Part shown: piece after piece, positions 36 to 13,875 of the stretch
Layout of the letters: every line of letters begins with the position of its first letter
How positions within the stretch are numbered: the first letter of the stretch is position 1
Virus genome (UHGV): UHGV-1982450
Length of the DNA: 21,444 bases
Source of the DNA: a virus
Reading direction: 5' to 3' (one strand)
Program-made: the position numbers and the translations under genes
The notes under the pieces: generated by a model
The model's database searches: none
What the model was told of the DNA's origin: nothing
The model's input: the letters and a program-made list of their open reading frames with translations, nothing else

Positions 36-218
36 CTAACTTTGCAACAGTGCCCTTTTATCTCTCATAACCACCAGCGTCGATGCCGCCGGAGATTGGT
101 ATTTGAATATTCTGGCCTGCGGTGCTGGCTTTGCCTCAGAGACAGGAATAGGACGAGATTGACATGCAGTGATAAGTAACGCGGAGGCAGCAACCAGAGG
201 AAGTAATACGTGTTTCAT
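36..218 (-). CDS. Small putative lipoprotein. The ORF extends to 254, but an internal Met at 216-218 gives a signal peptide MKHVLLPLVAASALLITAC with lipobox LITAC.
   Basis: Basic n-region, hydrophobic h-region and L-I-T-A-C lipobox read from the translation. The upstream ATG at 252-254 lies inside a GC hairpin and has no Shine-Dalgarno. No recognisable homology. Confidence 0.45.
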   Translation of the reverse strand: MKHVLLPLVAASALLITACQSRPIPVSEAKPAPQARIFKYQSPAASTLVVMRDKRALLQS

Positions 219-277
219 TGTACCGAACAAAATCCTTATCTTTACGAAAATCATGGCGCCTCAAGGCGCCATAATGC

Positions 278-556
278 TCAATCGAGGCGTTTTAGAATAT
301 CGGCCAGATCTTCTTTGGTCATACCCGAGTTTTCGTAAATCTTCATGACCTTTTCACGAGCCTTTGCAGTAGTCTCTAATGACGTAGCTATCTTATCAAA
401 ATCACCCATCGTCATATTGGACAGCACCAGATTGATGATGTCTGCCTTTGACAGTTTTATGCTGCGTTCACGCAGTCGATTCTGAAAGGTCTCTAGTTTA
501 TCGTTTGCTTTTTCGGTTAACTGAACCTGGCAGTGTATAGCGCGTTTCTCGCTCAT
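278..556 (-). CDS. Hypothetical 92-aa protein, possibly a ribbon-helix-helix type DNA-binding protein
   Basis: Its start at 556 lies 3 nt from the helicase stop at 559, suggesting translational coupling. The predicted beta-alpha-alpha pattern is weak evidence only. Confidence 0.4.
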   Translation of the reverse strand: MSEKRAIHCQVQLTEKANDKLETFQNRLRERSIKLSKADIINLVLSNMTMGDFDKIATSLETTAKAREKVMKIYENSGMTKEDLADILKRLD

Positions 557-558
557 GC

Positions 559-2118
559 TTACTCTCTATTCAAAACAGTGAAATCGAATGTGCTGCCAAC
601 CGGCAAGACCCCCTCGGCAAACCCAGGCGTCGTGTCGATAATGTGTTTCCGCTCATATGAATGCGACATGAGGTATTTGTTGCTCACGTCGATGAAGTCG
701 GTAATAAAGCACACGTTAGCCTGATTCTTTTTGGCTCGAAGACCGCGACCCACACGTTGACGCATCTCCACTTCGGCTTTGCCGCCACCACCCAGAATCA
801 CCGCGCCTACGCTTGGAACGTCGACACCAACATCCAGAATGGTTGAACCAATGAGAACATCTATCTTGCCTGCCGCCAGACTATTAAGTTTTGCTTGTCG
901 GGTAGTCTGGTTTGATTCTCCGTAGATGAAATCGACCTTCAGGCCACTCTCTTTCATCATTTCCATCAAGATCTGACCATGACGCTTCAGACGAACCAAT
1001 GTCATACAGTTCAGACCGTGACTCTTGTACATTAGCGCTTCACGCACAATAGCTTCGTTGCGGCCCAGATTATAGACGATGCCTAACTGATAGGCTTTCT
1101 GGTAAGCCGTGCTCATTCCAACCCGAAAATTCAGGTGTTTTGAAGCAAGTTCGGCTCTAATCCGCGCCTCATCTGGAGTGTACGCGATTTTATGATATAA
1201 AAAGTATGGTTTCGCTAAAATACCTCTGTCGATCAAATATTTCTCCGTTACTTTTATCTCGATGCGACCCGCAACGGCCATGAGACGCATATTTGCTTCA
1301 GTCGAGTCCTTCATGAACGGCGTAGCTGTCAGCGCCAGACGGTAGTCGGCATTGATGCACAACCGGGCGATGTCGTAGAAGTTAGAACCAGATGATTCGT
1401 GTGCCTCTTCCAGAATCAGCAGAGAAACGCTGGACAGGAAGCGTTTAACCAGTTCCCGGCGCTTCAGGTGGTACTGTTTTTTCTCCGGTGATGCGTCGCG
1501 CGGTGGCTCTTCGAGAAAACTGGCCAGGGTCTGCACCGTGGCAACGTTGATATGGCGCGAGACCTGGAACTCACCCGATCCAATCACCCCAACTCTCTGA
1601 CCTTTCAGCCACGGCTCGCCATTCTCCGCGCGGTAGTCGATGGATTTCTGGAAGTTCTCTGCCATCTGGAACATCAGAACCGATCGCGTGGTTAAAAACA
1701 GCGTCATACGACCAATGCGAGCAGCAGCCTTACACGCTACGTTCGATTTACCGCCACCCGTCGCAATCTGGGCAATCATCATCCCTTCGCGCACCAGTGT
1801 TTCCACTGTCTGATCCTGATACGCGTAGTCCGGGTTATACGGGAATGGGTTAACCACCGGATTCGGCTTACCCAGCGCGGGAGCTTTTTCCTTGCGAACA
1901 TGCACGCATTTGATGCCAGCTTTCAGAAGATTGGTCGCAACTGGCTTCGCAAACCCAGCCGGGAACGCGTTTTTACTCCAGTTGAACATCGTGCTGGTCC
2001 CTTTCCAGTCACCAGCCTCCACTTCATAGCTCAACATCTCCTGAACAAGCCGTTTCACGTTGTCATCAGCGCCAGAAATCAGCGCATTGACTGCATTTGA
2101 TACAATCCGAACAGTCAT
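559..2118 (-). CDS. Superfamily-2 DEAD/DEAH-box-like ATP-dependent helicase
   Basis: Walker A ATGGGKS, DEAH-like motif II LILEEAHESS, motif III LTATPF, and arginine-finger motif VI RQRVGRGLR in the 519-aa translation. Confidence 0.85.
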   Translation of the reverse strand: MTVRIVSNAVNALISGADDNVKRLVQEMLSYEVEAGDWKGTSTMFNWSKNAFPAGFAKPVATNLLKAGIKCVHVRKEKAPALGKPNPVVNPFPYNPDYAYQDQTVETLVREGMMIAQIATGGGKSNVACKAAARIGRMTLFLTTRSVLMFQMAENFQKSIDYRAENGEPWLKGQRVGVIGSGEFQVSRHINVATVQTLASFLEEPPRDASPEKKQYHLKRRELVKRFLSSVSLLILEEAHESSGSNFYDIARLCINADYRLALTATPFMKDSTEANMRLMAVAGRIEIKVTEKYLIDRGILAKPYFLYHKIAYTPDEARIRAELASKHLNFRVGMSTAYQKAYQLGIVYNLGRNEAIVREALMYKSHGLNCMTLVRLKRHGQILMEMMKESGLKVDFIYGESNQTTRQAKLNSLAAGKIDVLIGSTILDVGVDVPSVGAVILGGGGKAEVEMRQRVGRGLRAKKNQANVCFITDFIDVSNKYLMSHSYERKHIIDTTPGFAEGVLPVGSTFDFTVLNRE

Positions 2119-2182
2119 AAACCTCTTTCCTTCGTGCCTTTTGTATGGTAATTGGCTATTATGTTAAGTAAGTGCTTACACA

Positions 2183-2611
2183 ATGTATCGTATCAAAAAT
2201 ATGGATGTGAAAATTACGATTCTACAGGTGGAAGTCGCGAACCTGCGTCCGAACCCCTGGAATACCAACTCCGTTGGGGCGCAAAACTTCGAAAAACTGA
2301 AAGGTTCCATCGAAAAGTTGGGCTTTTTTAAGCCAATTCTGGCGCGAGAGCTGGACGGCGGCATTTTTGAGATTCTCGGTGGCGAACATCGCTGGCGTGC
2401 CGCGATGGAGCAGGGCATTTCAACGGTTCCCGTCATCTCCGTGGGCAAAATTAACGACCTGGTGGCCAAACAGATGTTCCTCGTCGACAACGAGCGCTAC
2501 GGCGAAGACGATCAGGTCGCTTTGCAGCGCTTAATCGAAGAAATCCAGTCTGAAATCGACTACCGGTTACCCGAAACTGCTGCTGGCGCCTCGCCATCGC
2601 ATGTTTCCTAA
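2183..2611 (+). CDS. ParB-like nuclease domain (ParB/Srx fold) protein
   Basis: ParB N-terminal domain signature FEILGGEHRWRAA with the surrounding conserved hydrophobic pattern. Confidence 0.75.
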   Translation: MYRIKNMDVKITILQVEVANLRPNPWNTNSVGAQNFEKLKGSIEKLGFFKPILARELDGGIFEILGGEHRWRAAMEQGISTVPVISVGKINDLVAKQMFLVDNERYGEDDQVALQRLIEEIQSEIDYRLPETAAGASPSHVS

Positions 2612-3251
2612 GCTGAAGCCAACCACCAATACCACCGTGGCCAACCAGTATTGGGGGCGGTACGTGAACAACAACTTTGCGGTGATCAGCCGTTCCGTTG
2701 TGGACACTCAGTACCGCGGTGTCGGCGTCTCCTATCGAATGATTAACCTGGTTAGCAGGATGCACGACCGGCCAATCATCGAGATCCAGTCGTCGATGAG
2801 CAAATACAACCCGTTCGCCATGAAAGCAGGGTTCCAGTTCATCCGTCCGGAGCGTCCGAAGAGCTATGAGAGTGCGTTGCGCGTCTTCCAGCGTCATTTC
2901 CGTTCCGACCCTGGCGACAACGAAGCGATCGTCAAAGAGCTGTTTGCCATGAGTGAGTCTCGCCGTCGTCGTGCGCTGCGTGATCTGGTCGCTGACTACC
3001 ACAAGAACAGTTCCCTGGCCAAAGCCGGGCGTAATCGTGGCACGACGATTCAGGACATTGCCGACAGCCTGGTGGACGAGGCCAGCATCGTGAAGCTGCT
3101 CAAGGACATTCACAACCTGAGCTTCACGTCTCCGCTGTATGGCGTGTACCGAAACCCGGACTTTGGTCGTCAGCTGCCGGACACGCTGCCACTGCTGGCA
3201 TTCGACAAACAGCCTTTGAATAAACCTCTTGAAATTGCATTACCGGCATAA
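2601..3251 (+). CDS. Hypothetical protein; the N-terminal part carries a GNAT-like motif A/B pattern (QYRGVGVSYRMINLV ... NPFAMKAGFQF)
   Basis: 216-aa ORF overlapping the ParB-like ORF by 11 nt in a different frame. Frame 0 is open only from 2535, so it cannot extend further upstream. No good Shine-Dalgarno before 2601. Confidence 0.5.
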   Translation: MFPKLKPTTNTTVANQYWGRYVNNNFAVISRSVVDTQYRGVGVSYRMINLVSRMHDRPIIEIQSSMSKYNPFAMKAGFQFIRPERPKSYESALRVFQRHFRSDPGDNEAIVKELFAMSESRRRRALRDLVADYHKNSSLAKAGRNRGTTIQDIADSLVDEASIVKLLKDIHNLSFTSPLYGVYRNPDFGRQLPDTLPLLAFDKQPLNKPLEIALPA

Positions 3252-3260
3252 GGATTTGCC

Positions 3261-3527
3261 ATGACGTTGACCGACAAACAAAAAGACATCATCAAAACCA
3301 TCAATTTAGGCCATGAGCGTGGGCATCTGCTCGATCTGGACGAGCTGCTTGAAGTGCTGCCGTACAAAACGACCAAACAGAGTATGCAGTTCTCTATCCG
3401 CGCACTGGTGAAAAAGGGGCTGGTGGAGAAAGGAATGTGCCGCCAGCGCGGTGATTCCGGCTACCACCGTCGCACGCTGGGACTGACCACGTTAGGTCGT
3501 GCCAGAGCCAAATTACTGGTGATGTAA
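3261..3527 (+). CDS. Hypothetical small protein, possible winged-helix DNA-binding protein
   Basis: Shine-Dalgarno AAGGA 6-7 nt upstream of the ATG. Helix-turn-wing pattern LVKKGLVEK; weak. Confidence 0.45.
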   Translation: MTLTDKQKDIIKTINLGHERGHLLDLDELLEVLPYKTTKQSMQFSIRALVKKGLVEKGMCRQRGDSGYHRRTLGLTTLGRARAKLLVM

Positions 3528-3548
3528 GTCGGTCTGGGAGCCAGTTTG

Positions 3549-3611
3549 AGAGCCTGCTTCCGTATATATAAATACTAAGTGACTTATTAAATATATACGG
3601 AAGCAGGCTCT
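3549..3611. repeat. Perfect 21-bp inverted repeat (arms 3549-3569 and 3591-3611) around a 21-nt AT-rich spacer; a degenerate copy lies at 11519-11570
   Basis: AGAGCCTGCTTCCGTATATAT ... ATATATACGGAAGCAGGCTCT read directly. Intergenic, upstream of the terminase small subunit gene. No downstream U-tract. Confidence 0.8.
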
Positions 3612-3641
3612 GAATACTCCCCAGCCCGGTTTTAAACACCC

Positions 3642-3682
3642 AGAAAACAAATTGGTTAGGCACTGAATTAAACAAGTTGTTT
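3642..3682. promoter_or_regulatory. Two adjacent copies of a dyad motif AGAAAACAA(A/G)TTG(T/G)TT (3642-3657 and 3668-3682), 41 bp upstream of terS
   Basis: AAACAA-N-TTGTTT palindrome; the same motif recurs upstream of the parA-like and DnaB-like genes. Confidence 0.4.
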
Positions 3683-3722
3683 AGGAGCGCAAGGATGCGC
3701 TCTGAGTGTTTTAGAGGGATCT

Positions 3723-4364
3723 ATGACTATAGAAAAAGACGAGAGCAAAACTCGCCTGACACCAGCTGAGTGGGCAGAAGCCGAAGCGAAGTGGACTTCC
3801 GGCGAATACACACTCTCCAAGCTGGAGGAAGAGTACGGCATTCGTCGTGAAACGCTCTCCAGACATTTCAAAAAGCGTGGATTAGAGAAAGGCGCGGACT
3901 CCGTTGGGAAGATGGTGCGCGAGTCGCTCAAATCCGACGCAGAGCTGCGTGCGAAGGCGCGTGCAGAGAAAATCGAAGAGCGCCGGACTCGTTACGACGA
4001 TTGGGCGTTCGCACTCGGTCGTATGGTGATGCATGAGGTGGCCATAGCCAAGAAGGACGGCAGGCCACTGGCAGCCATCGAAGATGACCTGAAGAGTCTC
4101 CAGCGTGCCAGCGGCACACTCGCTAAGTGCTTCGAAATATCGTCGAAAGCGCTCGGTATGGATCGCGTGGAGAACGAGGACGACGAAATCCCGAACCTGG
4201 TATTTGGCGAACTTACGCCTTCCCAGGTGGCGCAGCTGCGTAAGGAAGATGATGAGCCGGATCTGATTGATGACGATCTGCTTGAGTCACTCGAAGAGGA
4301 AGCACTGAGCGAAGCTGAGGGCGATTCTGAAGCGTCTGGTGATGAAAGTGATGGGAGCGTCTGA
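3723..4364 (+). CDS. terS: Terminase small subunit (putative)
   Basis: Lies immediately upstream of the terminase large subunit with a 2-nt gap. HTH-like N-terminus, central helical region and strongly acidic C-terminal tail. Shine-Dalgarno GAGGG before the ATG. The call rests mainly on position and architecture. Confidence 0.65.
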   Translation: MTIEKDESKTRLTPAEWAEAEAKWTSGEYTLSKLEEEYGIRRETLSRHFKKRGLEKGADSVGKMVRESLKSDAELRAKARAEKIEERRTRYDDWAFALGRMVMHEVAIAKKDGRPLAAIEDDLKSLQRASGTLAKCFEISSKALGMDRVENEDDEIPNLVFGELTPSQVAQLRKEDDEPDLIDDDLLESLEEEALSEAEGDSEASGDESDGSV

Positions 4365-4366
4365 CT

Positions 4367-5623
4367 ATGGCCATCCCGTCGTCTCTGAGTCTCGTACAGC
4401 TGCATTCTGGGCAGATGCAAGTCTTCCAGTCGCCACATCGTTTCAAAGTGGTGTGTGCGGGTCGACGCTGGGGTAAATCCCGGTTGTCGATCTCCACCAT
4501 CATCCGCGCGGCAGCCAAAGAGAAGAAGCAACGTGTCTGGTATGTCGCACCGACTTACCAGATGGCTCGCCAGATCTTGTGGGATGACCTGCAGGAAGTT
4601 CTGCCGCGCAAATGGGTTCGTAAGAAAAACGACACCACGATGACCATCGTGCTGAAGAACGGCTCTGAAATCGCGCTGAAAGGTGCGGATAAGCCCGATA
4701 CGCTTCGTGGTGTGGCACTGCACTTTGTGGTGCTCGATGAATTTCAGGATATGAAGCCTGACACCTGGTACAAGGTACTGCGTCCGACACTGTCCTCCAC
4801 CCGTGGCGGTGCGCTGATCATCGGTACGCCAAAAGGCTTCTCCGAGTTCCACAAGCTGTGGACTATCGGTCAGAACAAAGATTTGCAACGCAAGGGGCAG
4901 TGGAAGAGCTGGCAGTTCGTTACGGCCGATTCTCCGTTCGTACCGAGCGCGGAAATCGAAGCAGCGAAGAACGATATGGACCCTAAATCGTTCGCACAGG
5001 AATACCTGGCCAGCTTCGAAAACATGTCCGGACGCGTTTACTACCCGTTCGACCGCAATGTGCATGTGAAGCCACTCCAGTTCAATCCGAAACTGCCGAT
5101 CTGGGTTGGTCAGGACTTCAACATCGACCCTATGTCATCGGTCATCCTGCAACCGCAGCCAAATGGTGAACTGTGGGCTGTGGACGAATTGGTGTTGTTC
5201 TCTTCTAACACGGCTGAAGTGTGTGACGAGCTGGAGCGTCGATACTGGCGCTGGAAATCTCAGGTCACTATCTTTCCTGACCCGGCAGGTGCGTATCGCC
5301 AGCACGCACGCGGCGAATCTGACGTCGACATCTTCAAAGAGAAAGGTTTCCTTCGAGTCGATTATCCGAAGAAGCACCCGCCGATCGCAGACCGTGTTAA
5401 CGCAGTGAACCGCATGTTGATGAGTGCCTCGGGCGAAACCCGGTTGTACATCGATCCGAAGTGCAAACACCTCATCGACTCGCTGGAGAAGGTGATCTAC
5501 AAGCCAGGCTCACGCGATATGGATAAGACTGGCGGCATCGAACACAGTGCGGATGCGTTGGGTTATCCGGTTCATCGTAGGTATCCGGTGAAAAATCGTG
5601 TTATTCTTGGTGGATCTAGATAG
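4367..5623 (+). CDS. terL: Terminase large subunit (ATPase plus nuclease)
   Basis: Walker A-like VVCAGRRWGKS, Walker B-like FVVLDEFQD, and a C-terminal nuclease region with the VGQDFNIDPMS acidic motif. Confidence 0.9.
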   Translation: MAIPSSLSLVQLHSGQMQVFQSPHRFKVVCAGRRWGKSRLSISTIIRAAAKEKKQRVWYVAPTYQMARQILWDDLQEVLPRKWVRKKNDTTMTIVLKNGSEIALKGADKPDTLRGVALHFVVLDEFQDMKPDTWYKVLRPTLSSTRGGALIIGTPKGFSEFHKLWTIGQNKDLQRKGQWKSWQFVTADSPFVPSAEIEAAKNDMDPKSFAQEYLASFENMSGRVYYPFDRNVHVKPLQFNPKLPIWVGQDFNIDPMSSVILQPQPNGELWAVDELVLFSSNTAEVCDELERRYWRWKSQVTIFPDPAGAYRQHARGESDVDIFKEKGFLRVDYPKKHPPIADRVNAVNRMLMSASGETRLYIDPKCKHLIDSLEKVIYKPGSRDMDKTGGIEHSADALGYPVHRRYPVKNRVILGGSR

Positions 5624-5638
5624 GTAAGTACTTACCTA
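5621..5638. promoter_or_regulatory. 18-bp perfect palindrome TAGGTAAGTACTTACCTA spanning the terL stop codon, 19 nt before the portal start
   Basis: Read directly. A related sequence TAGATAAGTAAGTACATACCTA occurs at 11654-11675 upstream of the ORF starting at 11689. Confidence 0.4.
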
Positions 5639-5656
5639 AGTGGAAAGGAAAATCAA

Positions 5657-7231
5657 ATGGAATTGACTGACAAGCAAATCAAAGACCTTGTGGCACGACG
5701 CCACCCTGAATATGAGAAGAAAAAAGAACATTGGGACTTCCTCGCCAGCACCTACGCTGGCGGGCGTGCCTGGTTCAACGACAATATCTTCCGTTACTTC
5801 AAAGAGGGCGATCAGGAGTTCAAAGAGCGCCTGGAACGCGCTTATCGCTTCAACCATACGCGCGAAGTGGTAAACCTCATCAACAAATACCTCTTCAAAG
5901 AGGTCATTCACCGCAACACTGATGAAGCACCGGAGCAGATCCGCAATTTCTGGAAGCGAGCCACGCGCCAGAACGCCTCCATCGATGCGTTTATGGCGGC
6001 TATCGATCTGCAATCATCCATTTATGGCCGTATCTGGGTTGTCGTGGATAGCACGATGAACGTCGATGTTGAGTCTGTTGCAGACGAGAAGAAAAATGAT
6101 GCGCGTGCCTACGCTTACTGGATTTCGCCGCAGCAGCTGCTTGATGTTGCCTGGGATGAAGACGGCAATATGTTGTGGGCGCTGATTGTTGAAATCGCGC
6201 GCGACGACGAAGATCCGTTCACTTCAACCGGGCAGGAATACCAGCGTTACCGTCTGTGGACGCAAAACGAGTGGTATCTGTTCCGTGAAGAAGTGAAGAA
6301 GGGTTCCGGAAATAGCGGTCGCCGTCAGGCCAAAGTCGTTCTGGAGGATAGCGGCCAGCATAATCTGGGCGTGGTGCCGGTGTTCCCGGTGGATTGCATT
6401 GGTGAAAGCGAGTCTCCGTATTTTAGCCCGTCGTTGATTGACGATATTGCCTATCTTGATCGCGCCGTGGCCAACTACCTGTCGAACCTTGACGCGATTA
6501 TTCAGGATCAGACATTCAGCCAGTTAGCGATTCCGGTTCAGTCCCTGCTGCCGGGCGATGAAAACCACACCAAAGTGCTCGAAATGGGGACAAAACGTGT
6601 CTTCACCTTCGATTCTGAGAGCGGTAATCAGCCATTCTATCTGTCTCCAGACCCGAAACAGGCTCAGATGATCATCACCACGATTAAGACGGTGATTAAT
6701 GAGATCTACCATTCCGTTGGTGTGGCTGGTGAGCGAACCAAGCAGGATAACGCGCAGGGTATCGACAACTCTTCGGGGGCAGCGAAGATGTACGACTTCC
6801 AACGTATTAACAGTCTGTTGGTGACAAAAGCAGAGCGCCTCGAAAGGGCAGAACGCCAAATGATGGAGTTGGCTGCGAAATGGATGGGCATCGAATTGGA
6901 TGAAGACCACTCTCTGATCGCTTACCCGGAGAGTTTCGATATTCGTGGTCTGACTGACGAATTTGCCGTCGCTGAGAAATTGTCGCTGTTACAGGCGCCT
7001 GATTCTGTACGTCGTCATCAGATGGAAATGCTCATAGAAAAGATCTTCCCGAATATTTCCGAAGCGATGCAAAAGGAATTTAAAAAAGATCTCTTGAAAT
7101 TTCCTCTAAAAAATGCTCCTGGCGCCCTTGAAAATAAGTCAGTACTTACTTATGATTGCGATACAGTCCAAGAAAGCGGACAAGATCAACCCCGAGGGAA
7201 TGGGGACTCATCTACTCAAGAGACCGAGTGA
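5657..7231 (+). CDS. Portal protein (putative)
   Basis: 524-aa protein immediately downstream of terL with a strong Shine-Dalgarno (AAAGGAAAA). Size and acidic C-terminus are typical of portals. Called mainly on synteny. Confidence 0.7.
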   Translation: MELTDKQIKDLVARRHPEYEKKKEHWDFLASTYAGGRAWFNDNIFRYFKEGDQEFKERLERAYRFNHTREVVNLINKYLFKEVIHRNTDEAPEQIRNFWKRATRQNASIDAFMAAIDLQSSIYGRIWVVVDSTMNVDVESVADEKKNDARAYAYWISPQQLLDVAWDEDGNMLWALIVEIARDDEDPFTSTGQEYQRYRLWTQNEWYLFREEVKKGSGNSGRRQAKVVLEDSGQHNLGVVPVFPVDCIGESESPYFSPSLIDDIAYLDRAVANYLSNLDAIIQDQTFSQLAIPVQSLLPGDENHTKVLEMGTKRVFTFDSESGNQPFYLSPDPKQAQMIITTIKTVINEIYHSVGVAGERTKQDNAQGIDNSSGAAKMYDFQRINSLLVTKAERLERAERQMMELAAKWMGIELDEDHSLIAYPESFDIRGLTDEFAVAEKLSLLQAPDSVRRHQMEMLIEKIFPNISEAMQKEFKKDLLKFPLKNAPGALENKSVLTYDCDTVQESGQDQPRGNGDSSTQETE

Positions 7232-7253
7232 TAAGTAACGAAAAGGTATTTCT

Positions 7254-8021
7254 ATGAATCTGTGGCAAATGCTTATGGCCCGTCGTGGCCTGATGGATGT
7301 AGCCGAAGCGCATGAGCGCGGCGGCGCTGGTGGCGGTGCTCCTGCTGGAGACAATGAGCAGAGCATTCAAGACCCAGGCAAACAGGGCGAGCAAAAAGAG
7401 CAACCGAAGGGTGACGACGATGAGTATGCCGGTATGACTCAGGAAGAGTTGCTGGCAGAACTGCGTAAGTCTAAGAAAGCCGGTGCTGATCTGTTGAAAG
7501 AGAACATGAAGCGCAAGGAGAAAGAGCGCACATTGGCCGATCAGCTGGCTCAGTACGGTGATATTGACCCGACGCGTGCTCGTCAGCTTCTCGAAGCTGA
7601 ACAAGCCGCAGAAACCGCACGTCGGGAGGCGGAGCAGGCTGAACTGGAACGTCGTGGTGAGTTCGATGCTGTGAAAAAGCAGATGATCGAAGCACACCAG
7701 ACTGAACTGGCACAGCGCGACGAACGCTACTCCGCTCTGGAGAGCGAGAACGCCGCACTGAAGGCTCAACTGGTCGAAATGACTGTTGGTGTTTCCTTCA
7801 GCAGTTCTGCTTTCCTGCGTGACAAAGTTCTGATGACTCCGGCTATTGGCCTTGCACAAATTGCTGACGTTATGCCTCAAGTTTCTGCCGCAATGGATAA
7901 AGCGCAAGGCAATATCTCCAGTGGAGATACGGTACGCATCATCTTTGGCGTAGCTACCATTCTTGTGGCAGCATTCATTGCCTGGTCCCAGGTTCGCAAG
8001 CACCAGAAAGGATTAGTGTAA
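7254..8021 (+). CDS. Coiled-coil protein with a C-terminal transmembrane anchor (possibly scaffold- or lysis-related; function unknown)
   Basis: Long charged heptad-rich helical region (EAEQAAETARREAEQAELERR) and a C-terminal hydrophobic helix IIFGVATILVAAFIAW. Confidence 0.5.
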   Translation: MNLWQMLMARRGLMDVAEAHERGGAGGGAPAGDNEQSIQDPGKQGEQKEQPKGDDDEYAGMTQEELLAELRKSKKAGADLLKENMKRKEKERTLADQLAQYGDIDPTRARQLLEAEQAAETARREAEQAELERRGEFDAVKKQMIEAHQTELAQRDERYSALESENAALKAQLVEMTVGVSFSSSAFLRDKVLMTPAIGLAQIADVMPQVSAAMDKAQGNISSGDTVRIIFGVATILVAAFIAWSQVRKHQKGLV

Positions 8022-8443: not shown

Positions 8444-8965
8444 TTATTCTTCGAACAATTTTTCGATAGATTTTGTTGGATAGAACAAAGAACGATCGTT
8501 GTTACCAACCAGCTGGATAAAGCCCAAACTTTTATAAAACGCCCTGGCTTTATCGTTCAACGCCTCAACGAAAAGCCCATGAATGCCTACCGCAAGAGAT
8601 GCATTGTACACAACACGCATTGCGTGAGTTACAAGCATTGAGCCAAGCCCCTGACCTTGAAGAGATTTGTCCAAAGCCAGTCTGCCTAAAGTGATACTTG
8701 GGACATGCCGATAAGGCACTTTCTTTTGCTGACTCTTTGAAGGTAAGGTTTCTTTCTCAAAGCAGCTGCCTGACAAAGTGTAATAACCTAATACCTTTGG
8801 TATTTCTTCTTTAGTGCAAAGCACATAAGCGCGAAGAATTTTTCCTTCATGCTGTCTTTTTAAGTGGTTGGTCAAAAATGCGTTTAGCGACTCTTCGCCG
8901 CAATCAAAACCGTTTAGATCATAATCTTTCTCTCCAGAGAAAATCTCGATCGTCGTATTGCTCAC
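8444..8965 (-). CDS. GNAT-family acetyltransferase toxin of the TacT/AtaT/KacT type (aminoacyl-tRNA acetylating toxin family)
   Basis: Family-typical motifs FDCG, LGRLALDKSLQGQGLG and YKSLGF. Lies immediately downstream of, and co-oriented with, a DUF1778-type antitoxin gene. Confidence 0.9.
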   Translation of the reverse strand: MSNTTIEIFSGEKDYDLNGFDCGEESLNAFLTNHLKRQHEGKILRAYVLCTKEEIPKVLGYYTLSGSCFEKETLPSKSQQKKVPYRHVPSITLGRLALDKSLQGQGLGSMLVTHAMRVVYNASLAVGIHGLFVEALNDKARAFYKSLGFIQLVGNNDRSLFYPTKSIEKLFEE

Positions 8966-8972
8966 GAGTAAA

Positions 8973-9242
8973 TTACTCCATGCTTTTCAGACGATTGGCA
9001 GCTCGTTTCAGCTTGTCGTTCGGTGCCGGAGGATTGCTTATAGCATCCATAACCAGATTCCAGGACTCTTCACTTAGAACCAGTCTACGGTGTTGCTCTA
9101 TCACCTTCACGGCACGTTCGGATGCACTGCTAACCATGAACTGGGTAATGCTCTGGTTAGACATTGCGGCAGCTTCCTCGATGATGCTTTTATCGTCATC
9201 GGTTAATCTCAAATCGATGCGCTGCTTTTTCAGTGCGGACAT
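8973..9242 (-). CDS. DUF1778-family antitoxin (TacA-like RHH antitoxin)
   Basis: 89-aa protein whose N-terminal RHH region (RIDLRLTDDDKSIIEEAAAMSNQSITQFMV) and C-terminal toxin-binding helix match the DUF1778 pattern. Separated by 7 nt from the GNAT toxin gene. Confidence 0.85.
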   Translation of the reverse strand: MSALKKQRIDLRLTDDDKSIIEEAAAMSNQSITQFMVSSASERAVKVIEQHRRLVLSEESWNLVMDAISNPPAPNDKLKRAANRLKSME

Positions 9243-9510
9243 GTGTACCCCCTGATGGCCGGTGATGTAGGAAGGCCATCATTGCTCTCTATTTAAACTG
9301 AGTTTTCGACTCAAAGGTTATTTAACTGGGCTATAGCCCATTGCGTATGTGTCATCAAATTGTGTACGGCAATTTACCGTACTCGTAATATAGAGGTGAT
9401 TGTCACTTTTTTCAACAGACAAATGAAAACAGTTACTAGCAATAGGCAATAACAACCTACTAAATAACCTTTACACCGCAGCCGTAGGCATTTAGGCTAT
9501 ATCGCATATA

Positions 9511-9526
9511 AGAAAACAAGTTGTTT
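9511..9526. promoter_or_regulatory. Dyad motif AGAAAACAAGTTGTTT, 36 bp upstream of the parA-like start
   Basis: Same AAACAA-N-TTGTTT palindrome as at 3668-3682 and 12440-12455. Confidence 0.4.
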
Positions 9527-9561
9527 CATACGACAATAATTCACGCAAAGGAAACTCACCA

Positions 9562-10227
9562 ATGACCAAGATCATTGTGGTTGGCGGCACAAAAGGCGGC
9601 CCAGGCAAATCTACCGTTGCCCAGCAAATTGCGGTATGTCTCAAAGTTAAAAAGAAAAAGAAGGTTCACGTCACCGATATCGATATCCAGCGCACCACGA
9701 CCAGCTGGTGTGAAGACCGTCGCCAGAACGAAGATCTTGAACTGATCCCGTTCGCTTATGTGCAGGACGACATCGTCAAACATCTTAAATCGCTTCAGGG
9801 GCGAACTGATTATGTAGTGGTAGATGCTGGTGGCTTTGACTCCGAAATTCAGCGTCTGGCGATGCTTATGGCTGATGTAATCATCATCCCGCTGCGCCCT
9901 AAACGTCGTGATTTGAAATCTCTGCGTGATATCGACCCGATTATCGACAACGTTCGCAATGTGAACGAGAAAGTTAAGATCCGCGCGGTAATAAACCAGT
10001 GTCCGTCATTGCCTTCCCAGGTATCACGTATTCTGGCCGCGAAGGAAATTGTCGAAACTTTCGGCATCGAGGCTGCGCCGGTTAACCTGTACAACCGTAA
10101 CGTTTATGACGATGCGGAAGAGGCAGGTCGTTCTATCTTTGAAATGACTGGCGCTGAACGCGATAAGAAGGCAGAAGCCGAGTTCGAAGAGTTTGTAGAT
10201 TACATCTTGAGTCTGGAGGAAGAATAA
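9562..10227 (+). CDS. parA: ParA/ParF-type partition ATPase (small deviant Walker-A ATPase)
   Basis: Deviant Walker A GGTKGGPGKST at the N-terminus, size of about 221 aa typical of type Ib ParA/ParF, and a coupled downstream small RHH gene. Confidence 0.9.
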   Translation: MTKIIVVGGTKGGPGKSTVAQQIAVCLKVKKKKKVHVTDIDIQRTTTSWCEDRRQNEDLELIPFAYVQDDIVKHLKSLQGRTDYVVVDAGGFDSEIQRLAMLMADVIIIPLRPKRRDLKSLRDIDPIIDNVRNVNEKVKIRAVINQCPSLPSQVSRILAAKEIVETFGIEAAPVNLYNRNVYDDAEEAGRSIFEMTGAERDKKAEAEFEEFVDYILSLEEE

Positions 10228-10586
10228 TGTCCATGAGAATGGGAGACCTTGCAAAGCGCAATGAGCCTAAAGAACCGGCCAAAAGCAGCACTCCACTGCG
10301 CCAGCCAGTCAGACCGCAGGGGCGTCCGACTCGTGGCAAAGAGAAAATTAAAAGTCGCACAATGTCACTGGAAGACGAATACTTCGAACTGCTGGAGATG
10401 ATGAAGTTCATCCCTCGTTTCGAGAAGTTCACCCGTTCTGACGTGATTCGCGCTGCTATTTTCCATCTGGCAGAGAAGTCACCGCAGGAAATCGAGGACA
10501 TCGTGAAACTTAACGAGGCGATCACAGCTGCCGATGTCACGATGCGTACCGATGAAATCAAACGAGAGTTGATGAAGAAAGGTTAA
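10227..10586 (+). CDS. ParG-like centromere-binding protein (basic disordered N-tail plus C-terminal RHH)
   Basis: Start overlaps the parA stop (TAATG). Basic N-terminal tail and C-terminal RHH pattern SLEDEYFELLEMM ... RSDVIRAAIFHL. Confidence 0.6.
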   Translation: MSMRMGDLAKRNEPKEPAKSSTPLRQPVRPQGRPTRGKEKIKSRTMSLEDEYFELLEMMKFIPRFEKFTRSDVIRAAIFHLAEKSPQEIEDIVKLNEAITAADVTMRTDEIKRELMKKG

Positions 10587-10590
10587 AAAT

Positions 10591-10623
10591 TATGCATTGG
10601 CGCAATGTACGCGCCAATGCATA
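10591..10623. terminator. Bidirectional terminator candidate: 13-bp perfect stem (TATGCATTGGCGC / GCGCCAATGCATA) with a 7-nt loop, between convergent genes
   Basis: Read directly. An A/T tract (AAAAATT) flanks it on the left, which gives a U-tract for the minus-strand transcript. Confidence 0.5.
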
Positions 10624-10638
10624 AGTACAGTGTCAGCT

Positions 10639-11406
10639 TTATGCCGCGCTAACACTATGTTCATTCCTAACCACCCCAACCTTCACAAAAGGGCTGCCGT
10701 AGCTTGGTGGCTTCTTGATTAATTTGCCTACATACAGTTTTCTAATATGCTCATCGGCTATTCTGCCAACAAATTCATAACGTTTTGTGTCGGGGCCAAG
10801 AGCTATATCCCTTGTAAAGTACTGCTGAGAACCGGCTTTGACCCAGCATTCAATCTGATAAACTTCCATTATCAGGCCCCCATATGTAGCGTAGGCATAT
10901 TTGAGATTCTCGTCTCTTGGAACCTTTGCCCATACGCCACGCGTAGCTTCATATAATGCCAGAGCGGACATTCCTGACTTGTAGGTGCTGTTTAGCAGGA
11001 AGGCAAGACCGGCGTGCTCAGGAGCAATTTCAGTTTCCTCTTGCAGCACTAAGTGATGGTAGGCGTCCAGTGATATTCTGCCCATCATGGAACCACTTCC
11101 TCGTACCTTATTCGTAAGCTCTCCGACCCCCATAAGGTCGATGCATGTCGCCTCAACAAGTTTGGCTGTGGTTTCATCCATACCATGACGAAGAATATCT
11201 ATGCCTAATTTTTTATTAGCCAAAAGTTCTTTGATCCGCATGGATTTGGGAGAGTCATCGGGATACTTGATGTGATCGAGACAACGAGTCGATTTGCCTT
11301 TTCCTATGTAAAACGGTCTTTTCATCTTGTCTTCTGTATCATAGAGACAGTAAACATAGTATTTAGCCTTATCCAATGATCTCGCGTATACCGATAAATC
11401 GTCCAT
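10639..11406 (-). CDS. GIY-YIG nuclease domain protein with an uncharacterised C-terminal domain of about 150 aa
   Basis: N-terminal GIY-YIG motif YYVYCLYD ... PFYIGKGKSTRCLDH. The C-terminal half has no motif I recognise. Confidence 0.7.
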   Translation of the reverse strand: MDDLSVYARSLDKAKYYVYCLYDTEDKMKRPFYIGKGKSTRCLDHIKYPDDSPKSMRIKELLANKKLGIDILRHGMDETTAKLVEATCIDLMGVGELTNKVRGSGSMMGRISLDAYHHLVLQEETEIAPEHAGLAFLLNSTYKSGMSALALYEATRGVWAKVPRDENLKYAYATYGGLIMEVYQIECWVKAGSQQYFTRDIALGPDTKRYEFVGRIADEHIRKLYVGKLIKKPPSYGSPFVKVGVVRNEHSVSAA

Positions 11407-11518
11407 TATTGCATCTCTTAGCTACTGACTAATGCGTTCTATTTTACACATAAGTTTTTAATCAATTTTACAGGCTCAAAGTGTAGAGCTTCTGGGTGTC
11501 TAAGACGACAAGTTATGC

Positions 11519-11583
11519 CTGTTTCTGTATATAAATAATAAGTAACTTATTAAATATATACGGAAGCAGGTCTTTTAAAAGAC
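11519..11583. repeat. Degenerate copy of the 3549-3611 inverted repeat (shared core TATATAAATA-TAAGT-ACTTATTAAATATATACGGAAGCAGG) immediately followed by a 14-bp perfect palindrome GTCTTTTAAAAGAC (11570-11583)
   Basis: Read directly. Intergenic, between the divergent GIY-YIG gene and the ORF starting at 11689. Confidence 0.7.
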
Positions 11584-11688
11584 ACCCACCAGAACAACTC
11601 CCTTCCGTTTCCACTTCCCAAAAATATCTCCAGTCGCTATGATTCGCTCACTTAGATAAGTAAGTACATACCTATTAAAGGGAATCAT

Positions 11689-12414
11689 GTGAGCCAGATC
11701 TTCTTCAACACTATCGACAATGACCAGTACGATTTCATGACAGAGTGGAACACCGCAGTCATGGATAAGTGGGTAGCGGAGAACATTGGCCTGTCACGTT
11801 GCAAGGACGAGGCGGAACTGTTCGAAACCAAATGGTTTGACTATCGCGATATGCACCCGCTCATGGCCACATGCCTTTTCACTGAGGCATACAAGCGCCA
11901 GTACTCATACATCATGCTGTCGCATGGTCGTGAACACTATGAGACGGCTCCATTCACAACCGGTCTGAAGCGTGTGCCATATCAGGAGTTGTCGACTGCC
12001 AATAAAACGTCTCTATGGAAAGCACGCCAGTTTGCTGACCGCTATTGCTGCTCATACGACTACTTTATCTCCACCGTTCTTTCCGCAGCTGCACGACGGC
12101 TGTGGGACAAATTACCGCGCCCCCAGCATCTCTGGCAGCCCGAGTTGATCGATATATTCGAAGAGAAGTTAGCCAAACGCGCTGTAACCCGTCTGGATGA
12201 CTCTCTGGTGAGTTTTAAGCATCTTGGAGACATGCAGCGTGACCCGATTCAGGAACGCTATTTTGAGTGGATTCTGGAGCGTCTGCGTGGCATTACCCGA
12301 GATAAACGCATCCGTATCATCTTCTCCGCTGTCTGGTTGATGGAAATCGTGCCTGAGCGTGTGATTTACGCGCACTTCCCGGAAGAACTGGAAGAAGCAC
12401 GGCGATTCTGTTGA
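11689..12414 (+). CDS. Hypothetical protein (241 aa, GTG start)
   Basis: Long ORF with Shine-Dalgarno AAAGGG 7 nt upstream of the GTG. No recognisable motifs. Confidence 0.55.
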   Translation: MSQIFFNTIDNDQYDFMTEWNTAVMDKWVAENIGLSRCKDEAELFETKWFDYRDMHPLMATCLFTEAYKRQYSYIMLSHGREHYETAPFTTGLKRVPYQELSTANKTSLWKARQFADRYCCSYDYFISTVLSAAARRLWDKLPRPQHLWQPELIDIFEEKLAKRAVTRLDDSLVSFKHLGDMQRDPIQERYFEWILERLRGITRDKRIRIIFSAVWLMEIVPERVIYAHFPEELEEARRFC

Positions 12415-12439
12415 TCCCCTATCTGGCTTTTTTAGTATT

Positions 12440-12455
12440 AGAAAACAAATTGTTT
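12440..12455. promoter_or_regulatory. Dyad motif AGAAAACAAATTGTTT, 20 bp upstream of the DnaB-like helicase start
   Basis: Same palindrome family as at 3642-3682 and 9511-9526. Confidence 0.4.
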
Positions 12456-12474
12456 AAGCACCAAAGGAAAGCAC

Positions 12475-13815: not shown

Positions 13816-13875
13816 AAAAGAAGGCGTGGGGAAACACTCTCCACGCCTGTCTCCAGAAGAGAACAAATTTCTCTT

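What the first reader, a model, noticed from the sequence alone, without database searches (positions are those of the whole stretch)
5621..5638. 18-bp perfect palindrome at the terL-portal junction and a related TAAGTAAGTAC motif upstream of other genes
TAGGTAAGTACTTACCTA begins at the terL stop codon and ends 19 nt before the portal start. A similar TAGATAAGTAAGTACATACCTA lies just upstream of the ORF at 11689, and GTTAAGTAAGTGCTTAC lies in the divergent region before the ParB-like gene (2163-2180). This may be a second class of leader element, such as a translational operator or promoter core, distinct from the AAACAA dyad.
Basis: seen in the sequence. Interest (0 to 1): 0.4.

Follow-up and report, generated by a model that had tools for sequence, protein, structure and literature searches.

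The report
Dispersed regulatory palindrome of SSU5 phage-plasmids
The 18-bp palindrome between the terminase and portal genes is one copy of a conserved protein-binding DNA box that occurs about 25 times, almost always between genes, in SSU5-like phage-plasmids, and it most likely marks the control sites of the phage's lytic genes rather than an RNA leader.

Summary
TAGGTAAGTACTTACCTA is at 5621-5638, with related copies at 2165-2182 and 11657-11674 and an unreported fourth copy at 7135-7152 inside the portal gene. A weight matrix finds 4 copies against 0.015 expected.

The window is a deletion remnant of an SSU5-like phage-plasmid. Intact relatives (SSU5, Cyrano, pJN2-26, Y. pestis pMT1) carry 20-26 copies at the same gene junctions. 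In SSU5, 23 of 25 are intergenic in an 88% coding genome.

The box has a 7-4-7 layout: TA(A/G)GT(A/G)(A/G), four free bases, then the mirror half. Orthologous copies are 77-100% identical while flanks are about 50%.

- The two halves vary independently (no covariation).
- RNA folds are weak in three of the four window copies.
- Diverged lineages keep the layout with changed half-sites (Morganella, Massilia, Paraburkholderia).

This points to a site for a dimeric DNA-binding protein, not an RNA operator. Its position relative to conserved sigma-70-like elements varies. "MCP stop – box – terminator" is conserved across lineages and unexplained.

No P1 Lpa or C1 homologue exists. A winged-helix ORF (3261-3527) directly upstream of terS is a candidate binder. 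Whether the box activates, represses or both is unresolved.

The parts
5621..5638 (.). Perfect 18-bp copy of the box (TAGGTAA-GTAC-TTACCTA) at the terL stop / portal start junction
   Evidence: 28.5 bits. An orthologous copy sits at the same junction in SSU5, Cyrano, pJN2-26, pMT1, Morganella, the L020 type and about 75 IMG/VR genomes.
7135..7152 (.). Copy of the box inside the portal ORF (TAAGTCAGTACTTACTTA), lying in the spacer of a sigma-70-like promoter
   Evidence: 25.3 bits. Identical in SSU5, Cyrano, pJN2-26 and pMT1. Its only deviation from consensus avoids an in-frame stop.
7128..7156 (+). Sigma-70-like promoter TTGAAA-N17-TATGAT enclosing the 7135-7152 box, upstream of the gene at 7254
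   Evidence: Best + strand promoter-like match in the window, 10 of 12. The -35 (TTGAAA/TTGATA) and -10 (TATGAT/TATCAT) are kept in all lineages while the spacer carries each lineage's own palindrome.
11657..11674 (.). Copy of the box (TAAGTAAGTACATACCTA) 14 nt upstream of the GTG start of the 241-aa ORF (11689-12414)
   Evidence: 26.0 bits. Orthologous copies in SSU5 33601, Cyrano 31297 and pJN2-26 74984.
11615..11643 (+). Sigma-70-like TTCCCA-N17-TATGAT. It places the 11657 box at about +8 to +25 of the predicted transcript.
   Evidence: 9 of 12. The TATGAT/TATCAT hexamer and upstream block are conserved in three genomes.
2165..2182 (.). Weaker copy of the box (TAAGTAAGTGCTTACACA) in the 64-bp divergent region between the helicase gene (559-2118, -) and the truncated ParB-N gene
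   Evidence: 16.9 bits. Orthologues at SSU5 99799, Cyrano 105108, pJN2-26 34780 and L020 2140.
2160..2165 (+). -10-like hexamer TATGTT ending on the first T of the 2165 box (TATAGT in SSU5, TATAAT in Cyrano). It would place the box at about -7 to +11.
   Evidence: Inference from conservation; no transcription-start data.
3261..3527 (+). 88-aa winged-helix ORF directly upstream of terS. Candidate (unproven) binder of the box.
   Evidence: AlphaFold pLDDT 85.8; Foldseek matches to AF1382, MexR, MarR and MepR at TM 0.73-0.76. Specific to SSU5-type elements (phrog_900, function unknown). Orthologues occur in every lineage that has a box of this layout.
3577..3585 (.). Related short palindrome AAGTGACTT in the centre of the large dyad 3546-3614 upstream of terS. 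Identical to the P1 late-promoter '-22 box'.
   Evidence: A related motif, not a member of the 18-bp class.
11540..11548 (.). Second copy of the short palindrome (AAGTAACTT), in the centre of the large dyad 11518-11570
4367..5623 (+). terL (large terminase), whose stop codon is part of the 5621 box
5657..7231 (+). Portal gene

Best explanation
The palindrome is a DNA box with a 7-4-7 layout: TA(A/G)GT(A/G)(A/G), four free bases, then the mirror half. I propose that a dimeric, phage-encoded DNA-binding protein recognises it. It belongs to a family-wide set of about 25 such sites in SSU5-like phage-plasmids that control transcription of the lytic genes (morphogenesis, lysis, DNA metabolism).

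My preferred mechanism is position-dependent control at host sigma-70 promoters:
- Positive control where the box fills positions -29 to -12 and supplies TA of a TAnnnT -10. This resembles P1 Lpa boxes or a lambda Q binding element, and includes the copies that immediately precede terminators.
- Negative control where the box covers the start site or early transcribed region, such as the 2165 and 11657 copies.

The 88-aa winged-helix protein encoded at 3261-3527, directly upstream of terS, is the leading candidate binder.

Shown: the motif family, its intergenic bias, purifying selection on it, half-site independence and lineage-specific half-sites. Inferred: that a protein binds it, which protein, and the sign of regulation.

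In this window the copies are relics. The element has lost its head, tail and lysis genes.
For: Abundance and location:
- SSU5 has 23 distinct copies at <=4 mismatches against 0.17 expected. Nearly all are intergenic.
- 21 and 23 copies lie at the same junctions in Cyrano and pJN2-26.

Selection:
- Over 16 orthologous triples, identity is 0.77-1.0 inside the box against about 0.5 in the flanks.
- It is highest in TAnGTAA and TTACnTA and lower in the centre, as expected for two half-sites about one helical turn apart.

DNA rather than RNA:
- No covariation of mirrored positions.
- Weak RNA folds.
- A free central tetranucleotide.

Concerted lineage changes:
- TAGGTAT..ATACCTA in Morganella, TAGGT(G/A)G..CTACCTA in the L020 type, TAAGTCA..TGACTTA in Massilia and ATAGTCA..TGACTAT in Paraburkholderia.
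- In each lineage the copies share these half-sites, and most lie at the corresponding junctions.

Link to transcription:
- The portal-internal copy sits in a conserved TTGAAA-N17-TATGAT promoter in every lineage.
- SSU5 55696 and Cyrano 57447 have the same arrangement.
- Massilia has two copies abutting TTGACA-N17-TAnnGT.
- The pre-dam copy keeps TTGCCA-N17-AAAAAT in three genomes.
- Copies are absent from the parA, repA and lysogeny regions and from the early region, where the AAACAA class dominates.

Precedent: P1 has 11 late promoters with a 9-bp inverted repeat (PMC10695390). The box is AAGTGACTT, followed by 4 nt and then the -10. LPmat also has a -35, so its box lies in the spacer.

Candidate binder: ORF88 has a winged-helix fold. 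It lies in the gene position that lpa holds in P1, immediately upstream of the small terminase gene.
Against: - No binding or transcription data exist.
- The register of the box relative to promoter-like hexamers is not fixed. It lies in the spacer, at -7 to +11, at +8 to +25, or upstream of TGTAAGAAT/TATAAGAT. A pure repressor operator would explain this more simply.
- The flanks are symmetric, so the TAnnnT hexamers may simply be part of the palindrome.
- Seven to nine SSU5 copies lie between a stop codon and a terminator, where neither a promoter nor an operator is expected.
- Several copies lie 0-18 nt from the next start codon, too close for a downstream transcription start.
- The putative recognition helix of ORF88 is almost invariant between lineages whose half-sites differ.
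- Virulent phage nickie has a remote ORF88 homologue but no such box.
- The total count of promoter-like matches in the window is not above chance (13 against 15.8).
Confidence: 0.4

Rival explanations
1. Pure repressor operator. The box is the dispersed operator of a global repressor that keeps the lytic genes silent in the plasmid-prophage state, as the many C1 operators do in P1, or that shuts genes off during the lytic cycle. Copies away from promoters would act as roadblocks or looping partners.
For: The box sits in variable registers over core promoter elements: spacer, start site and early transcribed region. This matches the variable placement of annotated C1 operators in the P1 record. 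The portal-internal promoter has an optimal 17-bp spacer and good hexamers, so it should be active without an activator. The lytic genes of the relative Cyrano are silent in lysogens and are induced by ciprofloxacin (PMC9928086). No such box was found in the virulent relative nickie. One copy lies at the promoter of the operon that encodes the candidate binder, which would allow autoregulation.
Against: Strong early sigma-70 promoters carry the other motif class (AAACAA dyad) just downstream of their -10. That dyad is the more obvious prophage operator. Most boxes have no recognisable -35/-10 pair to block. No C1 homologue exists. The conserved stop-box-terminator arrangement is not explained.
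Confidence: 0.3
2. Loading or centromere-like sites for the ParB-N-domain proteins encoded next to the 2165 copy. This would resemble KorB OB sites of RK2 or the dispersed centromeres of N15, coupling genome organisation or partition to gene silencing.
For: Two ParB_N proteins are encoded directly downstream of a box in all relatives. The sites are palindromic, dispersed and of 16-18 bp. This matches the known behaviour of KorB and N15 SopB (my own knowledge, not tested here).
Against: Only the ParB N-terminal domain is detected. No ParB helix-turn-helix or partition-family model reaches its cut-off. The element has a separate ParA system with its own upstream region. Nickie keeps a ParB-like gene at the same position but has no box. 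About 25 sites spread over only the lytic modules is unlike a centromere.
Confidence: 0.1
3. RNA-level element. The transcribed palindrome would form a hairpin that is bound or cleaved to regulate translation, processing or stability.
For: The perfect copy folds to -8.1 kcal/mol (z = -1.8). Several copies lie 0-18 nt from a start codon or directly after a stop codon. In the L020 type the G6/T13 mismatch recurs and would be a G-U pair in RNA. The family encodes a FljA-like protein, and FljA is known to act on mRNA (my own knowledge).
Against: No covariation, and G:T is about as frequent as A:C. The other three window copies fold at -1.4 to -3.2 kcal/mol with z about 0. Sequence rather than pairing is conserved. 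Copies occur in divergent promoter regions and within promoter spacers. There is no Rfam match.
Confidence: 0.07
4. Non-regulatory repeat. The box would be a selfish or recombination-promoting intergenic palindrome (REP-like, or like the T4 PeSL cassettes) that marks module boundaries.
For: Location is intergenic, often at gene ends. Perfect TAAGTAAGTACTTACTTA also occurs in unrelated IMG/VR contigs as part of longer (TAAG)n(CTTA)n hairpins.
Against: Positions are orthologous and stable across genomes with about 80% nucleotide identity, and across lineages with 54-68% portal identity. One copy is maintained inside a coding sequence with the minimal change needed to stay in frame. Half-sites change in concert within a lineage. 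The window's two deletion breakpoints (about 2570 and 7845) do not lie at a box.
Confidence: 0.05

Closest known systems
Bacteriophage P1 late promoters (Lpa box at -22 plus a -10 hexamer)
   Same: Both are in a phage-plasmid of enterobacteria. P1 has about 11 dispersed sites with a short inverted repeat and no -35, upstream of morphogenesis and lysis operons. The P1 box AAGTGACTT is built from the same AAGT/ACTT arms. The identical 9-mer occurs at window 3577-3585. At P1 LPmat the box lies in the spacer of a -35/-10 promoter, as at window 7128-7156. The activator gene lpa lies directly upstream of the small terminase gene, as ORF88 does here.
   Different: The box here is 18 bp (7-4-7), not 9 bp. 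Its centre would lie at about -19.5, not -21/-22. Its register relative to promoter elements is not fixed. It also precedes DNA-metabolism genes and terminators. No Lpa (PF25716) homologue exists in SSU5, Cyrano, pJN2-26 or the window.
Bacteriophage P1 C1 repressor operators
   Same: Many monovalent operators are dispersed over a phage-plasmid genome. They overlap promoters in variable registers and silence lytic functions (P1 record annotation).
   Different: C1 operators are asymmetric 17-mers of unrelated sequence. No C1 homologue exists. Many boxes here have no overlapping promoter.
KorB operators (OB) of IncP plasmid RK2, and the dispersed N15 centromeres
   Same: Palindromic sites scattered over a replicon and bound by a ParB-family protein that also controls transcription. 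ParB_N genes sit next to one copy of the box here.
   Different: The sequences are unrelated. Only the ParB N-terminal domain is detectable. Binding is untested. The comparison rests on my knowledge of those systems.
Lambda Q binding element at PR' followed by tR'
   Same: A DNA site for the regulator lies between -35 and -10, with an intrinsic terminator shortly downstream that only modified polymerase reads through. This layout resembles the conserved stop-box-terminator copies.
   Different: Lambda has a single site. No Q-like protein has been identified here and no pause element was examined. This is purely an analogy of layout.
MarR/PadR-type winged-helix regulators and their 16-20 bp palindromic operators
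   Same: The ORF88 model superposes on MarR, MexR and MepR winged-helix domains (TM 0.73-0.76). Half-sites about one helical turn apart suit such dimers.
   Different: ORF88 is only 88 aa and lacks the MarR dimerisation helices. It has no Pfam or NCBIfam match. The link between this protein and the box is circumstantial.

Membership tests
P1 Lpa-dependent late promoter | 9-bp inverted repeat AAGTGACTT-like box centred at about -22 | tested here: not met
   The box here is an 18-bp 7-4-7 palindrome. Its centre AAGTACTT lacks the middle base. The exact P1-type 9-mer occurs only in the separate large dyads (3577-3585, 11540-11548).
P1 Lpa-dependent late promoter | -10 hexamer at a fixed 4-nt distance downstream of the box, with no -35 | tested here: inconclusive
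   TAnnnT overlapping the last TA of the box is present in 56-70% of copies. The flanks are symmetric, and other registers occur.
P1 Lpa-dependent late promoter | Element encodes an Lpa protein (PF25716) | tested here: not met
   tblastn found nothing below E = 0.9. An Lpa HMM run against all six-frame ORFs of SSU5, Cyrano and pJN2-26 gave a best E of 0.19.
P1 C1 operator regulon | Asymmetric 17-bp operator and a C1 repressor homologue | tested here: not met
   The motif is symmetric and unrelated in sequence. There is no C1 hit (best E = 5.5).
P1 C1 operator regulon | Many dispersed operators overlapping promoters in variable positions | tested here: inconclusive
   Dispersal is met. Overlap with convincing promoter elements is seen for only a minority of copies.
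ParB/KorB parS or OB site | Palindrome bound by a ParB protein carrying an HTH DNA-binding domain | not testable with these tools
   The adjacent proteins match only ParB_N, and partition-family models score below their cut-offs.
Intrinsic (rho-independent) terminator | G+C-rich stem followed by a T run | tested here: not met
   The stem is A+T-rich and has no T run. The scan does not list it. Separate terminators lie next to some copies.
RNA hairpin operator or structured RNA family | Base pairing maintained by covariation, stable fold, or an Rfam match | tested here: not met
   Watson-Crick counts equal the shuffle expectation. Three of 4 window copies fold no better than shuffles. There is no Rfam hit.
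MarR-type winged-helix operator | Palindromic operator bound by a winged-helix dimer encoded nearby | tested here: inconclusive
   A winged-helix fold is predicted for ORF88 and the box geometry is compatible. Binding was not tested, and the helix does not co-vary with the half-site.

The most novel reading that the evidence does not exclude
The box is a multi-copy loading site for a DNA-bound antitermination or late-control factor, possibly the 88-aa winged-helix protein. The factor would modify RNA polymerase as it starts at or passes the box, making the intrinsic terminator that follows 5-15 nt downstream conditional. It would amount to a Q-like switch repeated along the late region. The arrangement 'major capsid gene stop – box – terminator' is conserved from enterobacterial SSU5-like phage-plasmids to Massilia and Paraburkholderia elements, even though the box sequence has changed.
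Probability: 0.12. Interest if true: 0.7.

Novelty: new member of a known kind. Interest (0 to 1): 0.45.

Why it matters
SSU5/pHCM2/pMT1-type phage-plasmids are common in Escherichia, Salmonella, Klebsiella and Yersinia, and they carry resistance genes. Searches of the literature held here found nothing on how they regulate their lytic genes.

A conserved box of about 25 sites, with defined half-sites and lineage-specific variants, gives a concrete handle:
- It predicts the regulon.
- It nominates a small winged-helix protein as a regulator to test.
- It gives annotators a marker for transcription-unit boundaries.
- It allows remnants such as this window to be recognised as pieces of the phage-plasmid.

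The conserved stop-box-terminator arrangement could point to a less ordinary mechanism.

Tried and rejected
- **RNA hairpin or translational operator.** Rejected on covariation, G:T versus A:C counts, fold energies and Rfam.
- **Terminator.** Rejected: no G+C-rich stem or T run.
- **Membership of the P1 Lpa or C1 systems.** Rejected: no protein homologues.
- **Simple fixed-geometry promoter.** Profiles of -10 and -35 scores around 25 SSU5 copies show -10-like hexamers abutting both ends of the box (each in about half of the copies) but no -35 at a fixed distance, and the flank base counts are symmetric. The order of box and terminator is also variable.
- **Analogue in the virulent relative, Pseudomonas phage nickie.** None was found by k-mer, palindrome or relaxed-pattern searches.
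- **Identifying the binder by co-variation of ORF88 with half-sites.** Not feasible. The IMG/VR scan returned only relatives at >=80% identity. The few diverged orthologues have a nearly invariant helix.
- **Literature.** No paper in the held library contains the motif string or describes SSU5 or pHCM2 regulation. One 2026 preprint on an SSU5-like phage-plasmid could not be opened.
- **Host-factor sites recalled from memory (LexA, TrpR, SlmA, MqsA).** They do not match the half-sites. This was not tested further.
Full report
**What is in the window.** The sequence TAGGTAAGTACTTACCTA lies at 5621-5638. Its first three bases are the stop codon of the large terminase ORF (4367-5623). The portal ORF starts at 5657. 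A fourth copy, TAAGTCAGTACTTACTTA, lies at 7135-7152 inside the 3' part of the portal ORF. A 14-nt core pattern with up to 3 mismatches gives 5 matches against 0.38 expected. A weight matrix gives 4 hits at >=16 bits against 0.015 expected. Three of the four copies are intergenic in a 92.8% coding window.

**Origin of the window.** The window is 100% identical to parts of E. coli IncF plasmids. It is a piece of an SSU5-like (pHCM2/pMT1-type) phage-plasmid. Positions 55-7845 and 9465-15062 align with Salmonella phage SSU5 at 91-99% identity. Two deletions are visible: SSU5 100208 to 102277, and SSU5 4255 to 28407. The second removes all head, tail and lysis genes beyond the portal. The 'ParB-like gene' after the 2165 copy is therefore a truncated ParB_N fragment. 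It is followed by the C-terminal remnant of an ATPase gene at 2601-3251. The motif copies here are relics of a once complete element.

**The motif is family-wide.** SSU5 has 23 distinct copies with at most 4 mismatches to TAAGTAAGTACTTACTTA, against 0.17 expected. Weight-matrix refinement gives about 25 solid copies. Twenty-three of the 25 are intergenic although 88% of the genome is coding (P = 8e-20). Escherichia phage Cyrano has 21 copies and Klebsiella phage pJN2-26 has 23, at the same gene junctions. Y. pestis pMT1 and about 75 IMG/VR genomes carry it at the terL/portal junction.

Over 16 orthologous triples, identity is 0.77-1.0 within the box and about 0.45-0.55 in the flanks. The best conserved positions are TAnGTAA (1-7) and TTACnTA (12-18), and the centre is weaker. 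The portal-internal copy is identical in four genomes. Its one departure from consensus (TCA for TAA) is exactly what keeps the portal frame open.

**DNA site, not RNA structure.**
- Across the copies of each of three genomes, the number of Watson-Crick mirrored pairs equals the column-shuffle expectation (z = 0.04, -0.87, 0.31).
- G:T and A:C mismatches are about equally frequent.
- Only the perfect copy folds noticeably as RNA (-8.1 kcal/mol). The other three window copies fold at -1.4 to -3.2 kcal/mol, no better than shuffles.
- Rfam gives no match.
- In the L020-type lineage the central four bases vary freely (TTAA, TTAG, TTGG, TCAC, TCGC, TTGC, TTAC) while the outer heptamers stay constant.

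This pattern fits two half-sites read by a protein dimer.

**Lineage variants.** Diverged relatives keep the same 7-4-7 layout, mostly at the corresponding junctions, but with changed half-sites:

| Lineage | Box | Portal identity |
|---|---|---|
| Morganella | TAGGTAT-TTAA-ATACCTA | 68% |
| L020 type | TAGGT(G/A)G-N4-CTACCTA | 79% |
| Massilia | TAAGTCA-N4-TGACTTA | 54% |
| Paraburkholderia | ATAGTCA-AAAC-TGACTAT | 54% |

A 103-kb IMG/VR relative with only 55% portal identity keeps the E. coli-type box. The virulent, syntenic Pseudomonas phage nickie has no such box. Changes that are concerted across all copies of a lineage are what co-evolution with one binding protein predicts.

**Relation to transcription signals.** The portal-internal copy lies in the 17-bp spacer of TTGAAA-N17-TATGAT (7128-7156). 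This is the best + strand promoter-like match in the window. The hexamers are retained in every lineage while the spacer carries that lineage's palindrome. SSU5 55696 and Cyrano 57447 have the same layout. Other copies sit in different registers:
- The 2165 copy starts at the last base of a conserved -10-like hexamer (TATGTT, TATAGT or TATAAT).
- The pre-dam copy follows TTGCCA-N17-AAAAAT in three genomes.
- The 11657 copy lies 13 nt downstream of a conserved TATGAT (11615-11643).
- Others lie upstream of TGTAAGAAT or TATAAGAT.
- Two Massilia copies abut TTGACA-N17-TAnnGT.

The last two bases of the box plus four downstream bases form TAnnnT in 56-70% of copies. The flanks are symmetric, so this may simply be part of the palindrome.

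In SSU5, 7-9 copies lie between a stop codon and an intrinsic terminator, and 4-6 lie after a terminator. The arrangement 'major capsid stop – box – terminator' is conserved from SSU5 to Massilia and Paraburkholderia. I cannot explain this with a simple promoter or operator model.

**Distribution in the genome.** Copies occur in the morphogenesis, lysis and DNA-metabolism modules. They are absent from the parA, repA and lysogeny regions. It dominates the early region at 80-95 kb. The two classes therefore look like two tiers of control. In Cyrano lysogens the lytic genes are silent and the phage is induced by ciprofloxacin (PMC9928086).

**Comparison with known systems.** P1 is the best-studied phage-plasmid. 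[quoted passage not shown] In the annotated P1 record the boxes are AAGTGACTT, AAGTGACTA, AAGTGATTT, AAGTTACTT and ATGTGACTT, mostly followed by 4 nt and a -10. At LPmat a TTGACA -35 puts the box in the spacer. The arms AAGT/ACTT are the same as here. The exact 9-mer AAGTGACTT sits at window 3577-3585, in the centre of the large dyad upstream of terS.

The 18-bp box nevertheless differs in length and geometry. No Lpa or C1 homologue exists in SSU5, Cyrano, pJN2-26 or the window. So it works like such a box but is not a member of that family. P1 C1 operators share the dispersed, variable-register behaviour, but they are asymmetric and unrelated in sequence. KorB/OB-type sites are a further analogy because two ParB_N genes follow the 2165 copy. 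Only the ParB N-terminal domain is detectable in those proteins.

**Candidate binder.** The 88-aa ORF at 3261-3527 is the last gene before terS, the position that lpa holds in P1. Evidence for it:
- It is specific to this phage group (phrog_900, unknown function).
- It is predicted with pLDDT 85.8 to be a winged helix.
- It matches AF1382, MexR, MarR and MepR at TM 0.73-0.76.
- It has orthologues in every lineage that has a box.

Evidence against it:
- Its putative recognition helix hardly changes between lineages with different half-sites.
- Nickie has a remote homologue (hhalign 98%) without a box.

**Verdict.** The element is real, conserved and most likely a protein-binding DNA box that controls transcription of lytic genes. 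The RNA-operator reading is disfavoured. Whether the box activates, represses, or does both depending on position is not settled. I favour position-dependent control with a positive role at late genes (0.4) over a pure repressor operator (0.3). I found no description of this motif in the literature available here. It is a new member of a known kind of system: dispersed regulator boxes of phage-plasmids.

Noticed in passing
window 3642-3672, 9510-9527, 12440-12470; SSU5 (L001/L003/L004), about 20 copies: A second repeated palindrome, GAAAACAAnTTGTTTAA, lies about 11 nt downstream of GATAAT/TATTAT -10-like hexamers and 10-30 nt upstream of start codons. It is concentrated in the SSU5 early region (80-95 kb) and also lies upstream of parA, dnaB, cobT and nrdB. 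It looks like an operator or leader of early sigma-70 promoters.
   Followed up: partly
window 3546-3614 and 11518-11570: Two copies of a large dyad (17-24 bp arms) have a centre carrying AAGTGACTT / AAGTAACTT, the same 9-mer type as the P1 late-promoter box. They lie upstream of terS and upstream of the 241-aa ORF/dnaB. Dyads at the same two positions exist in the distant virulent phage nickie, with different sequence.
   Followed up: partly
window ~2570 and 7845: The window is a defective SSU5-like element. A 2-kb deletion fuses a ParB_N fragment to the tail of an ATPase gene. A 24-kb deletion removes all head, tail and lysis genes after the portal. In related plasmids the segment is bounded by IS26, and an IS1 interrupts the large ORF 16213-20889.
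   Followed up: yes
window 2183 vs 2201: The ATG at 2183 abuts the box with no ribosome-binding site. The alignment with Cyrano and SSU5 suggests the real start of the ParB_N gene is the second ATG at 2201.
   Followed up: no
window 8444-9242 (- strand): A GNAT-toxin / DUF1778-antitoxin pair (KacAT/TacAT type) sits next to the type Ib ParA gene (9562-10227). Its Cyrano counterparts are among the few genes expressed in lysogens.
   Followed up: no
window 10590-10624 and 10639-11406 (- strand): A 15-bp-stem terminator follows a minus-strand ORF that has a LEM-3-like GIY-YIG nuclease domain. The ORF has no SSU5 counterpart at this position.
   Followed up: no
SSU5 96897-97343 (L004 26897-27343, - strand), just outside the window: The family encodes a close homologue of FljA, the repressor of phase-1 flagellin (PF03614, E = 3e-81). 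It lies in the lysogeny-side gene cluster and is a possible binder of one of the two motif classes.
   Followed up: no
Pseudomonas phage nickie (L011-L013), e.g. 41950, 47574, 52088, 71542, 87442: Intergenic regions of this virulent relative carry G+C-rich hairpins whose loops look like -10 hexamers (GCGCTC-TATAAAC-TGAGCGC, GCGCTC-TTACAA-TGAGCGC, AGCGC-TATCATT-AGCGCT). A separate early-region repeat, TTGCAAGCGTTTAC, is also present.
   Followed up: no
IMG/VR loci L026, L028, L040, L063, L071, L085, L093, L096 and others: The perfect TAAGTAAGTACTTACTTA also occurs in about 28 contigs unrelated to SSU5. There it forms the centre of longer (TAAG)n(CTTA)n palindromes such as ctttactaagTAAGTAAGTACTTACTTActtagtaaag.
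   Followed up: no
window 11687-11691: Relative to SSU5 (ATGAGCCAG) the start region of the 241-aa ORF reads ATGTGAGCCAG. The ATG is followed at once by a stop, and the ORF must start at the overlapping GTG at 11689.
   Followed up: no
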